Origin: an uncultured Clostridia bacterium | GTDB taxonomy: Bacteria; Bacillota; Clostridia; TANB77; CAG-508 | Assembly: GCA_948664205.1 (NCBI GenBank) | Contig: CAPNDH010000002.1 | Location: forward strand, 1-53,886 | Direction: 5' to 3' | DNA: 53,886 nucleotides | Part shown: piece by piece, positions 48,103 through 52,026 of the stretch | Layout: each line of letters begins with the position of its first letter | How positions within the stretch are numbered: position 1 is the first letter of the stretch | Program-made: the position numbers and the translations under genes | Notes under the pieces: model-generated | Databases searched by the model: none | Told to the model about the DNA's origin: nothing | Seen by the model: only the letters and a program-made list of their open reading frames with translations

Positions 48103-48117
48103 TCTTTTCCCTCCTTC

Positions 48118-48206
48118 CAAAACTCGAAGAGTTTTGTACTATTCACTATTCATTATTCATTTAAGCCTTTTCTTCGAAGCACGGACGACTAATAGTCGCC
48201 CCTACA
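48118..48206 (-). repeat. Leader cassette L2 (hairpin 48118-48136, heptads 48137-48161) plus P-module (48172-48206) filling the mreD-mrdA spacer.
   Basis: See findings. The P-module starts at the mreD stop codon. Confidence 0.7.
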
Positions 48207-48207
48207 G

Positions 48208-48741
48208 CTAAAAATATCTCGTTAATATTTTCTGGCCCTTATATATATCTTCTATTTTATACCCTACAATTTGTATTAATGGATATAAAATTACCGTTAA
48301 AATTGCATTATATAATACTTCTATCAATATAATTCTTATAAAACTTAAAATTTCTATATTTGTATTTAGCATTATTATACTTAATACATAACTTCCTATT
48401 TCAAATATAAATGTACTTCCTATTACCATAAGCATAATTGTAATTTTACTATCTTTTGAGAAATTTTTGTCAAAGTATCCACCTAAAATTGCAACTGCTG
48501 TTAGCATAATGGCATTTATTTCTATAGTTTTACCTATTACTATATCTAAAAACAATCCAAAAGTTAATCCAAATATTATACCATATTTCATTCCTAAAAA
48601 TAAACTTATAAATAATACTAAAATTATAAATAAATTTGGTTTTACTCCAGCTATTGTAAACCAACTGAAGAAGTTGGCTTGCAAAAAATATATAATTAAA
48701 AAGGTTAATATTAAACCTATTATTGTTATTGTTTTTTTCAT
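48208..48741 (-). CDS. mreD: Rod shape-determining protein MreD
   Basis: 177 aa, polytopic, directly after mreC. Confidence 0.8.
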   Translation of the reverse strand: MKKTITIIGLILTFLIIYFLQANFFSWFTIAGVKPNLFIILVLFISLFLGMKYGIIFGLTFGLFLDIVIGKTIEINAIMLTAVAILGGYFDKNFSKDSKITIMLMVIGSTFIFEIGSYVLSIIMLNTNIEILSFIRIILIEVLYNAILTVILYPLIQIVGYKIEDIYKGQKILTRYF

Positions 48742-48753
48742 TTTTAGTTTCCT

Positions 48754-49569
48754 TTATTGTGTAATTACTAATACTGTTTCTAGTTTTGAGAAGTCTACAG
48801 CTGTTTTTACCTTAGCATATCTATCTACTATATTTTTTGTATTTGATACTTTTGTTACTGTTCCTACTATTATTCCCTTTGGATATACTCCTCCTAATCC
48901 TGACGTTTCTATAGTATCCCCTTCTATTATGCTTGCCTCTGTTGGAATATATGTTGCTGTTAATGTACTATTTGCTTCTAGTGTTCCTCTTGCTATTATT
49001 GTATCTCTTGAAGCTGTTAATGTACAACTTATACTACTTGATGTATCTACTATCGTTTGTACTTTTGCTGTATTTGACGTTACTGATATTATTTGACCCA
49101 CTAAGCCTTTGTCCGATATTACTGCCATTCCTGCTTTTATTCCATCGTTTGAACCTACATTTATTACTATACAATTATTGTAATTACTTATATCTTTATT
49201 TATTACATATGCAGGTACAGTAGAGTACTGCGTATATTTATCTTTCAAATTAACATACTCTTTTAATGTTTCGTTTTCTGATTTTACTATTTCGAATTCT
49301 CTTAAGTCTTGTTGTAATTTGCTATTTTCCTGTTTTAGATTCTCATTTTCTTCTTTTAATTTGCTTACATCTGTGAAAAATTGATTATTTCCTGATATCC
49401 AATTTTTTAAATATGTTAAACCATTTTGAATTGGCATTACAAAAAAGTTCGTTAAACCTTGTACATATGATAGATTATCTATTTTTATATTTGACATTGT
49501 TACTATAACTATAAGTATAATTATTGATATTGCTATTCCAACAATCTTATTTTTATTTTTTTTATACAT
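48754..49569 (-). CDS. mreC: Rod shape-determining protein MreC
   Basis: TM segment, coiled coil (LKEENENLKQENSKLQQ) and the MreC beta domain (GLVGQI...TSGLGGVYPKGI.VG). Confidence 0.9.
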   Translation of the reverse strand: MYKKNKNKIVGIAISIIILIVIVTMSNIKIDNLSYVQGLTNFFVMPIQNGLTYLKNWISGNNQFFTDVSKLKEENENLKQENSKLQQDLREFEIVKSENETLKEYVNLKDKYTQYSTVPAYVINKDISNYNNCIVINVGSNDGIKAGMAVISDKGLVGQIISVTSNTAKVQTIVDTSSSISCTLTASRDTIIARGTLEANSTLTATYIPTEASIIEGDTIETSGLGGVYPKGIIVGTVTKVSNTKNIVDRYAKVKTAVDFSKLETVLVITQ

Positions 49570-49583
49570 AATCTATCCTTTCT

Positions 49584-49823
49584 CAAAACTCTCTGAGTTT
49601 TGTACTATTCACTATTCATTATTCATTATTCACTATTCATTCTTTTGTACGAAATTCGGTAAATTCTTTCTGGTATTTCTTACCGATTTAGCCCCTACAT
49701 TAATTTTGTATTCTTCACATGGGTATTCCTTCGAAGAGCGGACGAGCTATGTTCGCCTCTACAATTCAAATTTTGATTGTCCAAAAGGGACAGATTACCC
49801 ATTTGGAAACGTCCCCAATGGAC
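49584..49823 (-). repeat. Composite spacer mreB-mreC: L3 hairpin and heptads (49584-49641), half-S (49647-49698), P-module (49728-49765) and T4 (49779-49823).
   Basis: Each module matches copies elsewhere in the window. Confidence 0.7.
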
Positions 49824-49825
49824 AC

Positions 49826-50857
49826 CTAACGTCTTCTTCTTGAATTTACTAACACACTTTTTAATCTTTCTAAATCTTCTATTGTTTTTTCAGTTCCTTT
49901 TACAACACAATCTAATGGATTTTCTGCAATATATACTGGCATTCCTGTTTTGTGACTTAATAATTTATCTAGGTTTTGTATTAATGCCCCTCCGCCTGCT
50001 AATACTATTCCTTTTTCCATTATATCTGATGCAAGCTCTGGTGGTGTCTTTTCTAGTGTTTGCTTTACACTTTCAACTATATCATTTATAGATTCTGACA
50101 TTGCTTCCATTACTTGAGATGAAGTTATTTCAACATTTTGTGGTAATCCTGTTGATAAGTCTCTTCCTCTAATAATTATTGGTGTGTCTGTCATAAGTGG
50201 TGTTGCACAACCTACCGCTATTTTTATTTCTTCCGCTGTTGTTTCTCCTATTGCCAAGTTAAACTCCTTTTTAACGTAATTTACTATATCTTCATCTAGT
50301 TCATCTCCTGCTACTCTTAGGGATGTACTAACTACTATTCCACCTAAAGAAATAACTGCAACTTCTGTTGTTCCTCCACCTATGTCTACTATAATACTTC
50401 CACTTGGCTCTGCTACATCTAAATTTGCACCTATTGCTGCTGCCATTGGTTCTTCTATTAAATATACTTCCCTTGCACCTGCTTGAAGTACACTTTCTTC
50501 TACAGCTCTTTCTTCCACTTCTGTTATCCCTGATGGAACACCTACTACTACACGTGGTCTTACTACTCCATACCTTTGGCATACTTTTGAAATTAGATTT
50601 TTAAGCATTAATTGCGTTGCTGTAAAATCTGCAATTACTCCATCTTTTAAAGGGCGTACTGCTCTTATATCTTCTGGGGTTCTACCTAACATTTCTTTTG
50701 CTTCATGACCTGTTGCCAATATCTCTCCTGTTTTATTTGATATTGCTACAACAGATGGCTCTTTTAACACAATTCCTTTTCCCCTTAGTGTAACCAAGGT
50801 ATTTGCTGTTCCTAGGTCAATTCCTATATCTTTACTTTTTAATCCAAATAATTTCAT
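49826..50857 (-). CDS. mreB: Rod shape-determining protein MreB
   Basis: MKLFGLKSKDIGIDLGTANT... actin-fold motifs. ATG at 50857 follows an AAAGGA SD. The 14-aa track extension is translated repeat. Confidence 0.95.
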   Translation of the reverse strand: MKLFGLKSKDIGIDLGTANTLVTLRGKGIVLKEPSVVAISNKTGEILATGHEAKEMLGRTPEDIRAVRPLKDGVIADFTATQLMLKNLISKVCQRYGVVRPRVVVGVPSGITEVEERAVEESVLQAGAREVYLIEEPMAAAIGANLDVAEPSGSIIVDIGGGTTEVAVISLGGIVVSTSLRVAGDELDEDIVNYVKKEFNLAIGETTAEEIKIAVGCATPLMTDTPIIIRGRDLSTGLPQNVEITSSQVMEAMSESINDIVESVKQTLEKTPPELASDIMEKGIVLAGGGALIQNLDKLLSHKTGMPVYIAENPLDCVVKGTEKTIEDLERLKSVLVNSRRRR

Positions 50858-50872
50858 AATATTTTCCTTTCT

Positions 50873-51062
50873 CAAACTCGAAGAGTTTGTACTATTCACT
50901 ATTCATTATTCATTTTGGTAATTTCTTTGAAGAGTGGGCGAAATTCGGTATTCCTAATAGGTATTCCTTACCGATTTAGCCCCTACGGTTTAAAATAATT
51001 ATTTTTATTATTTTGGTAATTCCTTCGAAGTGCGGTTCGCCGAAAGCGGTGACCCCTACAAT
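50873..51062 (-). repeat. Composite spacer radC-mreB: L4 hairpin and heptads (50873-50914), half-S (50936-50986) and P-module (51023-51062).
   Basis: Module matches. 51048-51059 GGTGACCCCTAC equals the tRNA-Glu 3' end (25385-25396). Confidence 0.7.
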
Positions 51063-51146
51063 ATATCCATCTCAAAATTGAATTCTCTCATAACATAAAA
51101 AGAGAGTGATACGTATATTATTTTTTATCTCTCCCCTTTTATTTTT

Positions 51147-51845
51147 TTAACTTTTGTGTATTTTAGATAATATACTTTCAAATGTTCCATCTCCAATAAT
51201 AATGTGGTCTATTAATTGTATTCCAAATAATTTTGCACACTCTTGCACTCTATTTGTCATTTCTATGTCAGACATACTTGGACTCACATCTCCACTTGGA
51301 TGGTTATGCACCATTATAATTTTTGGCATTTCCATTTTTATTGCTTCTTTTAAGATGTCTTTTGGCTCTACATATATTTTTGCAGTAGCGCCAATAGAAA
51401 TATCAATTATTTTTTGAACTATATTTTTTGTGTTTAACATTATTACTTTTAGTATTTCTCTTTTTTCATATCTTAGTTCTTCTATAAGTAAATTAGCAAC
51501 ATCTTTTGGCTGTTTTATAACTACTTTTTTTGTATTTATTGGCCTTGCCATTCTTTTAGCTATTTCACATACTGCTTTTAATTCTATTGCTTTTACTCTT
51601 CCAATTCCTTTTATTTTAGTAAGTTCTTCTATTGTAGTTTGCTCTAAAAATCTTAAACTATTACTTTTATTTTCAGTATTTAAATTAAGTATTTTTTGTG
51701 CTAAACTAACTGCTGTTTCATCTTTTGTTCCTGTTTTTATTATTATTGCTAATAATTCTGAGTTTGATAAAGCTTTTGCTCCATACATTTCTAATTTTTC
51801 ATAGGGTCTTTCTGATAATGGTAAATCATTTAATTTTATTGACAT
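51147..51845 (-). CDS. radC: RadC-family JAB-domain protein
   Basis: HhH region plus the MVHNHPSGDVSPSMSD JAMM motif. Confidence 0.9.
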   Translation of the reverse strand: MSIKLNDLPLSERPYEKLEMYGAKALSNSELLAIIIKTGTKDETAVSLAQKILNLNTENKSNSLRFLEQTTIEELTKIKGIGRVKAIELKAVCEIAKRMARPINTKKVVIKQPKDVANLLIEELRYEKREILKVIMLNTKNIVQKIIDISIGATAKIYVEPKDILKEAIKMEMPKIIMVHNHPSGDVSPSMSDIEMTNRVQECAKLFGIQLIDHIIIGDGTFESILSKIHKS

Positions 51846-51873
51846 GATATATCCTTTCCATAAGCCCCTATTT

Positions 51874-52026
51874 CAAATCTGAAAGATTTGTACTATTCAT
51901 TATTCACTATCATTATTCATTTAAGCTATTTCTTCGAAGAACAGACGAGCGATGCTCGCCCCTACAATTTAAATTTTGATTGTCCAAAAGGGACAGATTA
52001 CCCATTTGAAAACGTCCCCAATGGAC
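51874..52026 (-). repeat. Composite spacer: L5 hairpin and heptads (51874-51921), P-module (51932-51967) and T5 (51982-52026).
   Basis: Module matches. T5 ends 1 nt from the DUF4321 stop codon. Confidence 0.7.

What the first reader, a model, noticed from the sequence alone, without database searches (positions are those of the whole stretch)
48103..51931. Conserved intercistronic leader cassette: stop-rich heptads plus a hairpin abutting the Shine-Dalgarno, in front of five genes
Five spacers carry the same cassette when read in gene sense (minus strand): those upstream of mrdA (48118-48161), mreC (49584-49641), mreB (50873-50914), radC (51874-51921) and, 47 kb away, yqfD (898-948). Each has 3-5 TGAATAG/TGAATAA heptads, usually preceded by AAGGCTTAAA, followed by a 6-8 bp hairpin. 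The hairpin ends 0-3 nt before the SD (about 15 nt for radC). The stems differ by paired substitutions (AAAACTC/GAGTTTT, AAAATTC/GAATTTT, AAACTC/GAGTTT, AAATCT/AGATTT) and the loops differ, so structure rather than sequence is conserved. Because 7 is not a multiple of 3, the heptads present TGA, TAA and TAG in all three frames, but only on the gene-sense strand. My inference is that this is a modular RNA-level element. It could be a processing site plus a 5' stabiliser hairpin for the downstream cistron. It could also be a catch-all translational stop for ribosomes leaving the upstream cistron out of frame, which is notable given the frame-break finding.
Basis: partly seen in the sequence, partly recalled or inferred. 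Interest (0 to 1): 0.7.

Follow-up and report, generated by a model that had tools for sequence, protein, structure and literature searches.

The report
Heptad-plus-hairpin repeat module before start codons
Five genes in this uncultured low-GC Clostridia genome are preceded by the same small repeat (3-5 TGAATAG/TGAATAA units, then a short hairpin that ends at the ribosome-binding site); it is real and also occurs in related species, but it behaves like a fast-evolving dispersed repeat rather than a gene-specific regulator, and its function is unproven.

Summary
Five sense-strand cassettes, (TGAATAR)3-5, TA, a 7-8 bp hairpin CAAA..TTTG, SD and start codon, lie before yqfD, mrdA, mreC, mreB and radC. 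A covariance model finds exactly these five in the window.

Seven more copies occur in four or five related uncultured Clostridia, before mreB, mreC, mreD and a GroEL-like gene. All 12 are gene-sense. The hairpin ends 12-18 nt before the start codon (28 nt for radC), while the distance from the upstream stop varies from 10 to over 230 nt.

The cassette is present in only 5 of 11 related species and at different genes. Copies within one genome resemble each other more than copies at orthologous positions.

Best reading: it is one module of a mosaic intergenic repeat system, anchored to translation-initiation regions and probably acting in the mRNA. A processing site plus 5' protective hairpin is the most likely role but is untested. 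The catch-all stop idea is not supported.

The closest precedent is the TAACTGA heptamer repeats of Beggiatoaceae. I rate it a new variant of a known kind, of moderate interest.

The parts
919..946 (-). Heptad array, 4 units (TGAATAG TGAATAG TGAATAA TGAATAG), in the yqfC(YabP)-to-yqfD spacer
   Evidence: Pfam YabP and YqfD
898..916 (-). Hairpin CAAAATTC-TGC-GAATTTTG. It ends 14 nt before the TTG start of yqfD (881-883). The SD GGAGGAGGG follows directly.
48139..48159 (-). Heptad array, 3 units, in the mreD-to-mrdA spacer
48118..48136 (-). Hairpin CAAAACTC-TTC-GAGTTTTG. It ends 15 nt before the TTG start of mrdA (48100-48102).
49605..49639 (-). Heptad array, 5 units, in the mreB-to-mreC spacer
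49584..49602 (-). Hairpin CAAAACTC-AGA-GAGTTTTG. It ends 14 nt before the ATG of mreC (49567-49569).
50892..50912 (-). Heptad array, 3 units, upstream of mreB. Strain L002 has lost about 1.6 units plus half of the adjacent GTAG module in a 55-nt deletion.
50873..50889 (-). Hairpin CAAACTC-TTC-GAGTTTG. It ends 15 nt before the ATG of mreB (50855-50857).
51893..51919 (-). Heptad array upstream of radC: TGAATAA, TGATAG (6 nt), TGAATAA, TGAATAG
51874..51890 (-). Hairpin CAAATCT-TTC-AGATTTG. It ends 28 nt before the ATG of radC (51843-51845).
48169..48205 (-). GTAG-tagged REP-like palindrome (module A, GTAGGGGCGAC-TATTA-GTCGTCC...CTTCGAAG) just upstream of the mrdA cassette. Sister copies lie at 45915-45960, 49725-49762, 51928-51965 and 17971-18008 (+).
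   Evidence: (I9, I16, I21, I22)
49650..49698 (-). GTAG-tagged palindrome (module B, GTAGGGGCTAAATCGGTAAGRAATACC...CCGAATTTCG) upstream of the mreC cassette. Sister copies lie at 50938-50986 (-), and as opposed pairs at 32810-32862/32911-32959 and 43034-43090/43136-43184.
   Evidence: (D2, D12, I3-I8)
49773..49825 (-). Module C (GGTGTCCATTGGGGACG...TGTCCCTTTTGGACAATCAA) directly after the mreB stop. A 92% identical copy lies at 51976-52028, and related copies at 6484, 28522 and 32993.
   Evidence: D5, D8
45874..45913 (-). A different heptad array, (TCCAACC)n, with no stop codons, 3' of a GTAG module in the mrdA-to-minC spacer. The window has one more unit than strains L001-L004.
45963..45997 (-). 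Another stop-free heptad array (GTCAGAA GTCGGAT GTCGGAA ATCAGAA AACAAAA), starting 2 nt after the mrdA stop
25183..25217 (+). TGAATAR array 34 nt after the stop of the + strand PBP gene (22848-25148). A terminator-like hairpin AAAAAAATTGGGAGCAATCCCAATTTTTTT follows. This is the stop, heptads, terminator context.
25257..25303 (+). TGAAnAR array plus TACAAACTTGCC. It is the left arm of a 42-nt, 90% complementary palindrome whose right arm is 25322-25363.
   Evidence: (I14)
25326..25360 (-). Opposed TGAAnAR array next to the 3' end of tRNA-Glu (25384-25458, -). The stem ACAAACTTGCC/GGCAAGTTTGT flanks it.
29401..29435 (+). TGAATAR array, 5 units, with an imperfect inverted partner at 29470-29496, between two minus-strand genes

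Best explanation
The cassette is one module of a mosaic intergenic repeat system in a lineage of uncultured, very low-GC (27.6%) Clostridia.

The system has three kinds of building block:
- (i) GTAG-tagged REP-like palindromes;
- (ii) tandem heptanucleotide arrays of several sequence families, namely TGAAnAR, TCCAACC and GTCRGAA;
- (iii) A-tract/stem/U-tract hairpins of the form TACAAA-x-loop-x'-TTTG(TA).

Outside operons, blocks (ii) and (iii) form long palindromes or sit between a stop codon and a terminator. Between co-directional genes only a half element is found: sense heptads plus a miniature apex hairpin. Its 3' edge always sits at the SD of the next gene.

Shown here:
- The module is non-random.
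- It is separable from its neighbouring modules.
- It is sense-oriented and anchored to the downstream start in 12 of 12 copies.
- Its stem complementarity is maintained.
- It is gained and lost quickly between species and homogenised within genomes.

Inferred, at about 40% of my belief: because it is transcribed inside mRNAs in one orientation, it acts in the RNA. The C-free, unpaired A/U/G-rich heptad tract would be an entry or cleavage site for an endonuclease such as RNase Y. The hairpin, left a few nt from the new 5' end and directly upstream of the SD, would protect the downstream cistron from 5'-exonuclease and mark the 5' edge of the ribosome-binding region. This would uncouple the downstream cistron from the repeat-laden spacer upstream.
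For: Reality and specificity:
- (see the observation check).

Independent copies in relatives with the same architecture:
- L227 radC-to-mreB, with no GTAG modules.
- L246, before a GroEL-like gene whose upstream neighbour is divergent.
- L248 mreC; L251 mreB, mreC and mreD.
- L457 mreC.

Anchoring:
- The hairpin end lies 12-18 nt from the start codon in 10 of the 11 copies tabulated and 28 nt at radC. In the twelfth copy (L457) I read about 14 nt from the sequence.
- The distance from the upstream stop to the heptads ranges from 10 to over 230 nt.
- The SD and its spacer are gene-specific. GGATAGATTATG of mreC is present with or without the cassette, so the cassette ends at TTTG.

Stem:
- 126 of 129 Watson-Crick pairs in 15 copies, with 10 distinct inner stems. 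None of 5000 shuffles reaches this.
- MFE folds show the hairpin with the heptads and SD mostly unpaired in most copies.

Repeat-family behaviour:
- Present in 5 of 11 related species, at varying genes.
- Mean identity within a genome is 0.85, against 0.75 for orthologous positions in different genomes. Heptad variants are genome-specific: TGAATAR in the window, TGAAGAG/TGAACAG in L251.
- Strain-level changes: a 55-nt deletion, a one-unit slippage, and clustered substitutions that look like gene conversion.

Palindromic and terminator-adjacent forms:
- (I14).

Orientation:
- It follows the gene in the few broader-Clostridia cases where local skew or the majority gene direction is opposite. This applies to 2-5 of 20 cases.
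Against: - No transcript data are available. Cleavage, stability and translation effects are pure inference.
- Predicted SD accessibility with and without the cassette is inconsistent. It rises for mrdA, mreB and radC and falls for yqfD and mreC.
- Formal covariation among the seven closest copies is thin. Only one pair shows a change on both sides.
- Stem complementarity could be kept by DNA-level palindrome mechanisms.
- In the window, orientation is confounded with the replication strand. The + strand GC skew is -0.175 and 34 of 42 long ORFs are on the minus strand.
- Rapid turnover argues that no single copy is essential.
- Four of the five window copies cluster in one 4-kb operon, which fits local spreading as well as it fits function.
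Confidence: 0.55

Rival explanations
1. The cassette is a neutral or selfish dispersed repeat with no RNA function. It would be a non-autonomous derivative of a single-strand-DNA transposon or REP/RAYT-type system, or a palindromic MITE-like element. Its strand bias would come from replication-strand-specific insertion. Its position next to the SD would come from target-site preference or from the lack of any other dispensable DNA.
For: - It is embedded among GTAG-tagged REP-like palindromes whose single copies are all on the G-rich, majority-gene strand.
- It is patchy between species and evolves in concert within genomes.
- Strains differ by indels and conversion-like tracts.
- It also exists as full palindromes (I14).
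- It clusters locally, with four copies in 4 kb.
Against: - No Y1 or other transposase gene is in the window, and no target duplication is visible at the boundaries.
- Twelve of 12 copies end 0-3 nt from an SD (about 13 nt at radC), at seven different genes. That would need a very unusual target specificity.
- In L246 and in a few broader-Clostridia loci the orientation follows the gene rather than the local majority strand.
Confidence: 0.27
2. The heptads are a binding-site array for a protein or RNA that reads single-stranded heptads. Candidates are a cold-shock-domain protein (about 7 nt per domain), ribosomal protein S1, a HutP-like NAG-N4 reader, or a trans RNA carrying (CUAUUCA)n. This would define a translational regulon.
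For: - The period is strictly 7 nt with UAG/UAA every 7 nt.
- The tract is predicted to be unpaired.
- An analogous proposal was made for TAACTGA repeats (PMC4679880).
- Complementary (CTATTCA)n tracts exist in the same genome at 25322-25363 and 29470-29496.
Against: - About half the units are UAA rather than UAG. By my memory, HutP needs NAG.
- The unit sequence drifts between species (TGAAGAG, TGAACAG, TAAATAG).
- No candidate binder is encoded in the window.
- The downstream genes share no obvious function: cell shape, sporulation and a chaperonin.
Confidence: 0.1
3. The cassette is a catch-all translational stop. Stops in all three frames would halt ribosomes that leave the upstream cistron out of frame or read through, protecting the hairpin, the SD or a terminator.
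For: - Every unit carries two stops on the sense strand only.
- In broader Clostridia, 21 of 45 arrays start 0-61 nt after a same-sense stop codon and precede a hairpin.
- The AT-rich heptads persist in a 56% GC genome, where chance stops are rarer.
Against: - In the window, out-of-frame stops already occur 8-131 nt after the radC, mreB and mreD stops, upstream of the heptads.
- Sister heptad arrays in the same spacers have no stops.
- L246 has no co-directional upstream gene.
- A composition-matched heptad is about as frequent in arrays.
Confidence: 0.05
4. The cassette is an attenuated intrinsic terminator, or a 3' stabiliser of the upstream cistron like REP in malE-malF. It would be a relic of the stop, heptads, terminator arrangement seen elsewhere.
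For: - The hairpin has the A-tract/stem/U-tract layout of bidirectional terminators.
- In other Clostridia the same TACAAA junction leads into real GC-rich terminators (L015, L024, L112), as it does at window 25183-25252.
Against: - The inner stems are only 3-6 AT-rich base pairs, with a free energy of about -5 to -8 kcal/mol.
- The terminator scan does not flag them.
- The distance to the upstream stop is variable while the distance to the downstream start is fixed.
Confidence: 0.03

Closest known systems
TAACTGA heptamer direct repeats of marine Beggiatoaceae, also in Cyanobacteria and Bacteroidetes (MacGregor 2015, PMC4679880)
   Same: Both are tandem 7-nt units in 2-6 copies, intergenic, and in forward orientation relative to the downstream gene. 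Both have two stop codons per unit on the sense strand and none on the antisense strand. Both lie just upstream of start codons of functionally unrelated genes. Function is unknown in both, with post-transcriptional roles proposed.
   Different: The unit sequence differs (TGAATAR). Here a conserved hairpin and a canonical SD lie between the repeats and the start codon, whereas TAACTGA repeats overlap the RBS position and canonical SDs are rare. The phylum is different. Here the array is also part of palindromes and sits next to REP-like modules.
REP/BIME elements: GTAG-tagged repetitive extragenic palindromes (Di Nocera 2013, PMC3733652; Nunvar 2010, PMC2817692)
   Same: Both are mosaic, modular intergenic repeats, often between co-directional or convergent genes, transcribed, and arranged as single or opposed units. 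Turnover is rapid. The neighbouring modules A and B in the window have the GTAG tag plus an imperfect palindrome.
   Different: The heptad-plus-hairpin cassette itself has no GTAG tag and is AT-rich. It contains a tandem heptad tract and is anchored to the SD. No RAYT gene was seen. GTAG REPs were not reported for Clostridia or Firmicutes in that survey.
Cyanobacterial heptanucleotide tandem repeats (STRR, from memory: Mazel 1990; Nostoc heptamers near start codons, bioRxiv 10.1101/2022.06.06.494920)
   Same: Several heptamer families occur per genome, in intergenic arrays near promoters and start codons, with suspected regulatory roles. Cyanobacterial loci in my scan show mixed heptad arrays with inverted partners.
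   Different: The sequences differ and no SD-abutting hairpin has been described. The relationship is probably convergent, since heptad arrays are generically common.
5' stabiliser hairpins and RNase Y/J processing sites of Firmicutes mRNAs (from memory: ermC and aprE leaders, cggR-gapA, saePQRS)
   Same: The proposed way of working is the same: an AU-rich single-stranded cleavage region followed by a stem-loop that protects the downstream fragment and lies next to the SD.
   Different: Those elements are gene-specific and not repeated. No cleavage has been shown here.
BOX elements of Streptococcus pneumoniae (from memory: boxA-boxB(n)-boxC)
   Same: Both are modular repeats in a Firmicute with a variable-number internal unit. 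Both are located in transcribed intergenic regions near gene starts and can affect expression.
   Different: The boxB unit is about 45 nt, not 7 nt. There is no sequence similarity (not tested, as no reference sequence was at hand), and BOX elements are not anchored to the SD.

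Membership tests
TAACTGA-type heptamer direct repeats (MacGregor 2015) | Tandem direct repeats of a 7-nt unit, 2-6 copies, intergenic | tested here: met
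   There are 3-5 units at five sites.
TAACTGA-type heptamer direct repeats (MacGregor 2015) | Forward orientation relative to the downstream ORF; stops in all frames on the sense strand, open on the antisense strand | tested here: met
   All 12 leader-type copies are sense. The stop content is read directly from the sequence.
TAACTGA-type heptamer direct repeats (MacGregor 2015) | Repeats end within a few nt of the start codon, in place of a canonical SD | tested here: not met
   A 17-19 nt hairpin and a canonical SD intervene. The last heptad ends 33-47 nt before the start codon.
TAACTGA-type heptamer direct repeats (MacGregor 2015) | Unit sequence TAACTGA | tested here: not met
   The unit is TGAATAG/TGAATAA.
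REP/BIME (GTAG-tagged palindromes) | Terminal GTAG tag followed by a 20-40 nt imperfect palindrome | tested here: not met
   The cassette hairpin starts with TACAAA and has no GTAG. The adjacent modules A and B do meet this feature, with stems of 9-11 bp.
REP/BIME (GTAG-tagged palindromes) | Associated RAYT (Y1 transposase) gene in the genome | not testable with these tools
   None of the 30 window ORFs scanned against Pfam is one. The rest of the genome is not available.
REP/BIME (GTAG-tagged palindromes) | High copy number, over 100 per genome | not testable with these tools
   Only 54 kb plus short strain contigs of this species are held. There are 5 cassettes and about 15 GTAG modules in the window.
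Intrinsic (Rho-independent) terminator | GC-rich stem followed by a U tract | tested here: not met
   The scan does not flag the cassettes. The stems are AT-rich with a free energy of -5 to -8 kcal/mol.
Sigma-70-type promoter | -35 and -10 hexamers with 16-18 nt spacing | tested here: not met
   No site lies in the heptads or hairpins. The total count is 38 against 34 +/- 6 in shuffles.
Any curated RNA family (Rfam 15) | Covariance-model match | tested here: not met
   Only tRNA-Glu passes the gathering threshold. Nothing matches at the cassettes at E<=1.
5' stabiliser / RNase processing site | Mapped transcript 5' end upstream of the hairpin, and a hairpin-dependent half-life | not testable with these tools
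   No transcript data are available. The layout is compatible: an unpaired AU-rich tract followed by a hairpin.
HutP-type antiterminator site | Two sets of three NAG triplets spaced by 4 nt, with a HutP gene present | tested here: inconclusive
   UAG or UAA occurs every 7 nt, but about half the units are UAA. No HutP domain is among the window ORFs. The NAG requirement is from memory.

The most novel reading that the evidence does not exclude
The cassette is a portable, self-propagating translation-initiation punctuation module. A C-free (UGAAUAR)n tract would be read in 7-nt steps by a single-strand-binding factor, or targeted in trans by the (CUAUUCA)n tracts found elsewhere in the genome. 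A clamp hairpin would be positioned on the 30S platform side of the SD. Copies would spread to new genes by conversion or insertion at SDs, creating a lineage-specific post-transcriptional regulon. This would be the clostridial counterpart of the unexplained TAACTGA network of Beggiatoaceae.
Probability: 0.12. Interest if true: 0.75.

Novelty: new variant of a known kind. Interest (0 to 1): 0.5.

Why it matters
Heptamer arrays in front of start codons have been seen in giant sulfur bacteria and cyanobacteria without any explanation.

This case is a cleaner and richer version:
- The array is coupled to a structurally maintained hairpin at a fixed distance from the start codon.
- It occurs in a dense series of related genomes in which it is gained, lost and homogenised.

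That makes two questions directly testable. Do such repeats act in the mRNA, in processing, stability or initiation? How do they come to sit exactly at ribosome-binding sites?

It also shows that low-GC Clostridia carry a REP/BIME-like mosaic repeat system with GTAG-tagged palindromes. I could not find this described for the group. Such repeats can inflate operon spacers from about 20 nt to about 290 nt inside essential cell-shape operons.

Tried and rejected
- **Chance or simple slippage.** Rejected by shuffles and the model scan.
- **One universal conserved element across phyla.** However, a composition-matched control heptad, (TAAGTAR)3, is nearly as frequent in the viral collection, 87 stretches against 111. 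Across phyla the arrays do not prefer to point at start codons: 10 cases against 19 in the mirror configuration. The cross-phylum occurrence is therefore probably generic heptad-array formation.
- **Terminator or promoter.** Not supported. A sigma-G-like TGAATA -35 box (consensus recalled from memory) lacks any matching -10.
- **Known RNA family.** None.
- **SD insulation by thermodynamics.** Inconsistent, with three spacers up and two down.
- **groES-groEL intercistronic element in L246.** Wrong. The upstream neighbour is a divergent gene.
- **Metagenome 16-mer scan.** Mostly chance hits. Only about 11 of 123 were genuine arrays.
- **Cassette pattern in viral contigs.** No hits.
- **Separating transcription-linked from replication-linked orientation.** Only weak evidence, from 2-5 of 20 informative loci.
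- **Literature.** No paper prints the repeat.
- **Walking along contigs of the same species.** Not possible, because look-ups are restricted to window proteins or search hits.

Full report
**Observation**

Each has 3-5 TGAATAG/TGAATAA units, then TA, then a 7-8 bp hairpin with a conserved base (CAAA...TTTG) and a variable inner stem. A purine-rich SD and the start codon follow.

Coordinates:

| Gene | Heptads | Hairpin | Hairpin end to start (nt) |
|---|---|---|---|
| yqfD | 919-946 | 898-916 | 14 |
| mrdA | 48139-48159 | 48118-48136 | 15 |
| mreC | 49605-49639 | 49584-49602 | 14 |
| mreB | 50892-50912 | 50873-50889 | 15 |
| radC | 51893-51919 | 51874-51890 | 28 |

The heptad dimer occurs 26 times against 0.69 expected. 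The junction GAATAGTACAAA is exact only at the five sites, all on the minus strand. A covariance model built from seven copies scores the five window copies at 38-66 bits with filters off. Nothing else exceeds 19 bits.

**What else is in the window**

Four further TGAATAR arrays are not in front of start codons:
- One lies 34 nt after the stop of the + strand PBP gene and leads into a classical terminator hairpin (25183-25252).
- Two face each other as a 42-nt, 90% complementary palindrome next to the 3' end of tRNA-Glu (25254-25363; I14).
- One has an inverted partner at 29470-29496.

The operon spacers also hold other modules:
- GTAG-tagged palindromes of two types, A and B, with stems of 9-11 bp.
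- A third module, C (D5, D8).
- Heptad arrays of unrelated sequence with no stop codons. (GTCRGAA)n and (TCCAACC)n flank a GTAG palindrome in the mrdA-to-minC spacer.

Where all are present the order is fixed: C, A, B, heptads, hairpin, SD. The organism is uncultured. All identical MreB hits are metagenome contigs. GC is 27.6%. Pfam assigns YabP/YqfD, RadC, MreB/C/D, a PBP and MinC to the flanking genes.

**Relatives**

A metagenome scan and MreC-guided look-ups gave ten related species with 71-83% MreC identity, plus L227 and L246.

The complete cassette recurs in these places:

| Locus | Position |
|---|---|
| L227 | radC to mreB, no GTAG modules; the whole spacer is 73 nt |
| L248 | mreB to mreC, degenerate copy |
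| L251 | before mreB, mreC and mreD |
| L457 | before mreC |
| L246 | before a GroEL-like gene whose upstream neighbour is divergent |

It is absent from the same spacers in L250, L252 and L458-L461. L252 instead has GTAG palindromes flanked by complementary heptad arrays. L461 has compact spacers of 11-82 nt.

Three regularities hold for all 12 copies:
- They are sense to the downstream gene.
- The hairpin ends 12-18 nt before the start codon (28 nt at radC). The distance from the upstream stop varies from 10 to over 230 nt.
- The SD and its spacer are gene-specific. The mreC motif GGATAGATTATG is present with or without the cassette, so the module ends at TTTG.

Stems are complementary in 126 of 129 positions over 15 copies with ten different inner stems. 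None of 5000 shuffles reaches this. Among the seven closest copies, formal covariation is limited to one pair.

**Repeat-family behaviour**

- Copies in one genome are more alike than copies at orthologous positions in different genomes, 0.85 against 0.75 mean identity.
- Each genome has its own heptad flavour.
- Strains that are more than 99.9% identical differ by three events. There is a 55-nt deletion between GAATA microhomologies that removes half of module B and about 1.6 heptads. There is a one-unit change in the (TCCAACC)n array. There are three clustered substitutions that restore the family consensus CTTCGAAG.

This is turnover, slippage and conversion, as in REP/BIME or BOX families. 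It is not conservation of a gene-specific leader.

**Wider distribution**

(TGAATAR)3 is found in many phyla. A composition-matched control heptad is almost as frequent in an equal-sized scan, 87 stretches against 111, and a second control gave 6. Across phyla the arrays do not point preferentially at start codons. I therefore treat the cross-phylum occurrence as generic formation of heptad arrays. Heptanucleotides are the commonest long simple repeats in bacteria according to Mrazek 2007, as cited in PMC4679880.

Within Clostridia there is a specific pattern:
- Arrays usually begin 0-61 nt after a same-sense stop codon (21 of 45, against 2 in the mirror configuration) and lead into a hairpin.
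- The AT-rich heptads persist as islands in a 56% GC genome.
- The TACAAA junction leads into genuine terminators next to tRNA genes in L024 and L112.

The leader cassette thus looks like a miniaturised half of a heptad-armed palindrome or terminator module.

**What it is not**

- It is not a terminator or a sigma-70 promoter.
- It is not a known RNA family.
- It is not needed as a three-frame stop. Out-of-frame stops already occur 8-131 nt after the radC, mreB and mreD stops, upstream of the heptads. Sister arrays have no stops.
- Predicted SD accessibility does not change consistently with the cassette.
- No transposase or obvious binding protein is encoded in the window.

**Mechanism**

Shown: the cassette is a separable, strand-specific repeat module with a maintained structure, anchored to translation-initiation regions.

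Inferred: it acts in the mRNA, because it is transcribed in one orientation at a fixed distance from the SD. The layout is an unpaired, C-free, AU-rich tract followed by a small stem-loop next to the SD. This is the layout of endonuclease entry sites and 5' protective hairpins in Firmicutes (from memory: RNase Y/J, ermC and aprE leaders, cggR-gapA). I commit to that as the most likely function, at about 0.4.

The main rival is a functionless single-strand-DNA-mobilised repeat whose strand bias reflects replication. I could not exclude it, because gene direction and GC skew coincide in the window. Only 2-5 of 20 outside loci are informative.

**Comparison and novelty**

The nearest precedent is the TAACTGA heptamer repeats (PMC4679880). 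They share the unit length, the stop content, the orientation and the closeness to start codons. They differ in sequence and in lacking the hairpin and a canonical SD.

The neighbouring GTAG palindromes meet the sequence definition of GTAG REPs (PMC3733652). That survey lists no Clostridia. No paper prints the TGAATAG repeat.

I class the finding as a new variant of a known kind. It is of moderate interest, mainly because the series of relatives makes the open question about heptamer repeats testable.

**Limits**

- Gene calls in foreign loci are simple ORF calls.
- Only 54 kb of this species is available.
- Relatives were sampled around mreC, which inflates the apparent concentration in the mre operon.
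- All functional statements are inference.

Noticed in passing
window 45915-45960, 48169-48205, 49650-49698, 49725-49762, 50938-50986, 51015-51059, 51928-51965 (all -); 17971-18077, 32810-32959, 43034-43184 (opposed pairs): GTAG-tagged REP-like palindromes of two types: GTAGGGGCGAC-TATTA-GTCGTCC..CTTCGAAG and GTAGGGGCTAAATCGGTAAGGAATACC..CCGAATTTCG. Single copies are all on the G-rich, majority-gene strand, and pairs are opposed like REPINs. The same kind occurs in relatives L227 and L252 and in Ruminococcus/Ruminiclostridium loci L077 and L100. The GTAG-REP survey PMC3733652 mentions no Clostridia or Firmicutes.
   Followed up: partly
window 45874-45913 and 45963-45997 (-); L252 spacers: Other heptad families without stop codons, (TCCAACC)n and (GTCRGAA)n, flank GTAG palindromes. 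In L252 they occur as complementary left and right arrays that would extend the palindrome. The (TCCAACC)n array differs by one unit between strains. TGTCGGA, the reverse complement of one family, is one mismatch from the Spo0A 0A-box TGTCGAA (recalled from memory). This was not tested.
   Followed up: partly
window 15699-17890 (-); 230-883 (-): The dcw-cluster PBP (FtsI/SpoVD-like) is split into three ORFs in three different frames: 17036-17890, 16372-17139 and 15699-16355. An intact paralogue lies at 22848-25148 (+). YqfD (217 aa) matches only positions 1-191 of the 379-position Pfam model. These may be pseudogenes, assembly errors or programmed frame changes.
   Followed up: no
L459 8942-9974 and 11633-13736; L460 8942-9974 and 11452-13555: In two independent assemblies of a related species, one Logan and one NCBI MAG (GCA_948967555.1), both mreB and the mrdA-type PBP are called as two overlapping ORFs each. 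This is a recurrent frame break in essential genes and deserves a check for programmed frameshifting versus homopolymer errors.
   Followed up: no
window 53161-53246: A perfect 39-nt inverted repeat with an 8-nt loop (TAAAAAAAGTGAGTCAAAAGGGACGGGGTAAATTGGCAC / reverse complement) lies after mecA. It is related to module C (GTCC..AAAAGGGAC motif; also at 6484, 28522, 32993, 49773, 51976). It causes spurious weak miRNA-precursor hits in Rfam.
   Followed up: partly
window 25254-25458; L153, L164, L224: A conserved arrangement lies next to tRNA 3' ends. The stem ACAAAC-x / x'-GTTTGT and opposed heptad arrays interleave in the order a-H-a'-H', giving two mutually exclusive long hairpins. The stem sequence ACAAACTTGCC is identical in the window and in L224.
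   Followed up: partly
L002 3290-3312 versus window 50904-50958; L003 versus window 50928-50935: There are strain-level changes inside repeats of otherwise more than 99.9% identical contigs. One is a 55-nt deletion between GAATA microhomologies. The other is three clustered substitutions that restore the family consensus CTTCGAAG, which looks like gene conversion.
   Followed up: yes
window 51080-51146; L251, L252, L458 radC-to-mreB spacers: radC is followed in all relatives by a conserved terminator-like hairpin plus T run (GGGGAGAGAT..ATC.CTCTCTTTTT), and in some by a TATAAT box. mreB therefore probably has its own promoter, and its cassette lies in a 5' UTR rather than in a strictly intercistronic spacer.
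   Followed up: partly
window 44402-45062: A PhdYeFM/ParE toxin-antitoxin pair follows minC in this species but is not called at that position in the relatives fetched. L251 instead carries two extra unannotated ORFs there.
   Followed up: no
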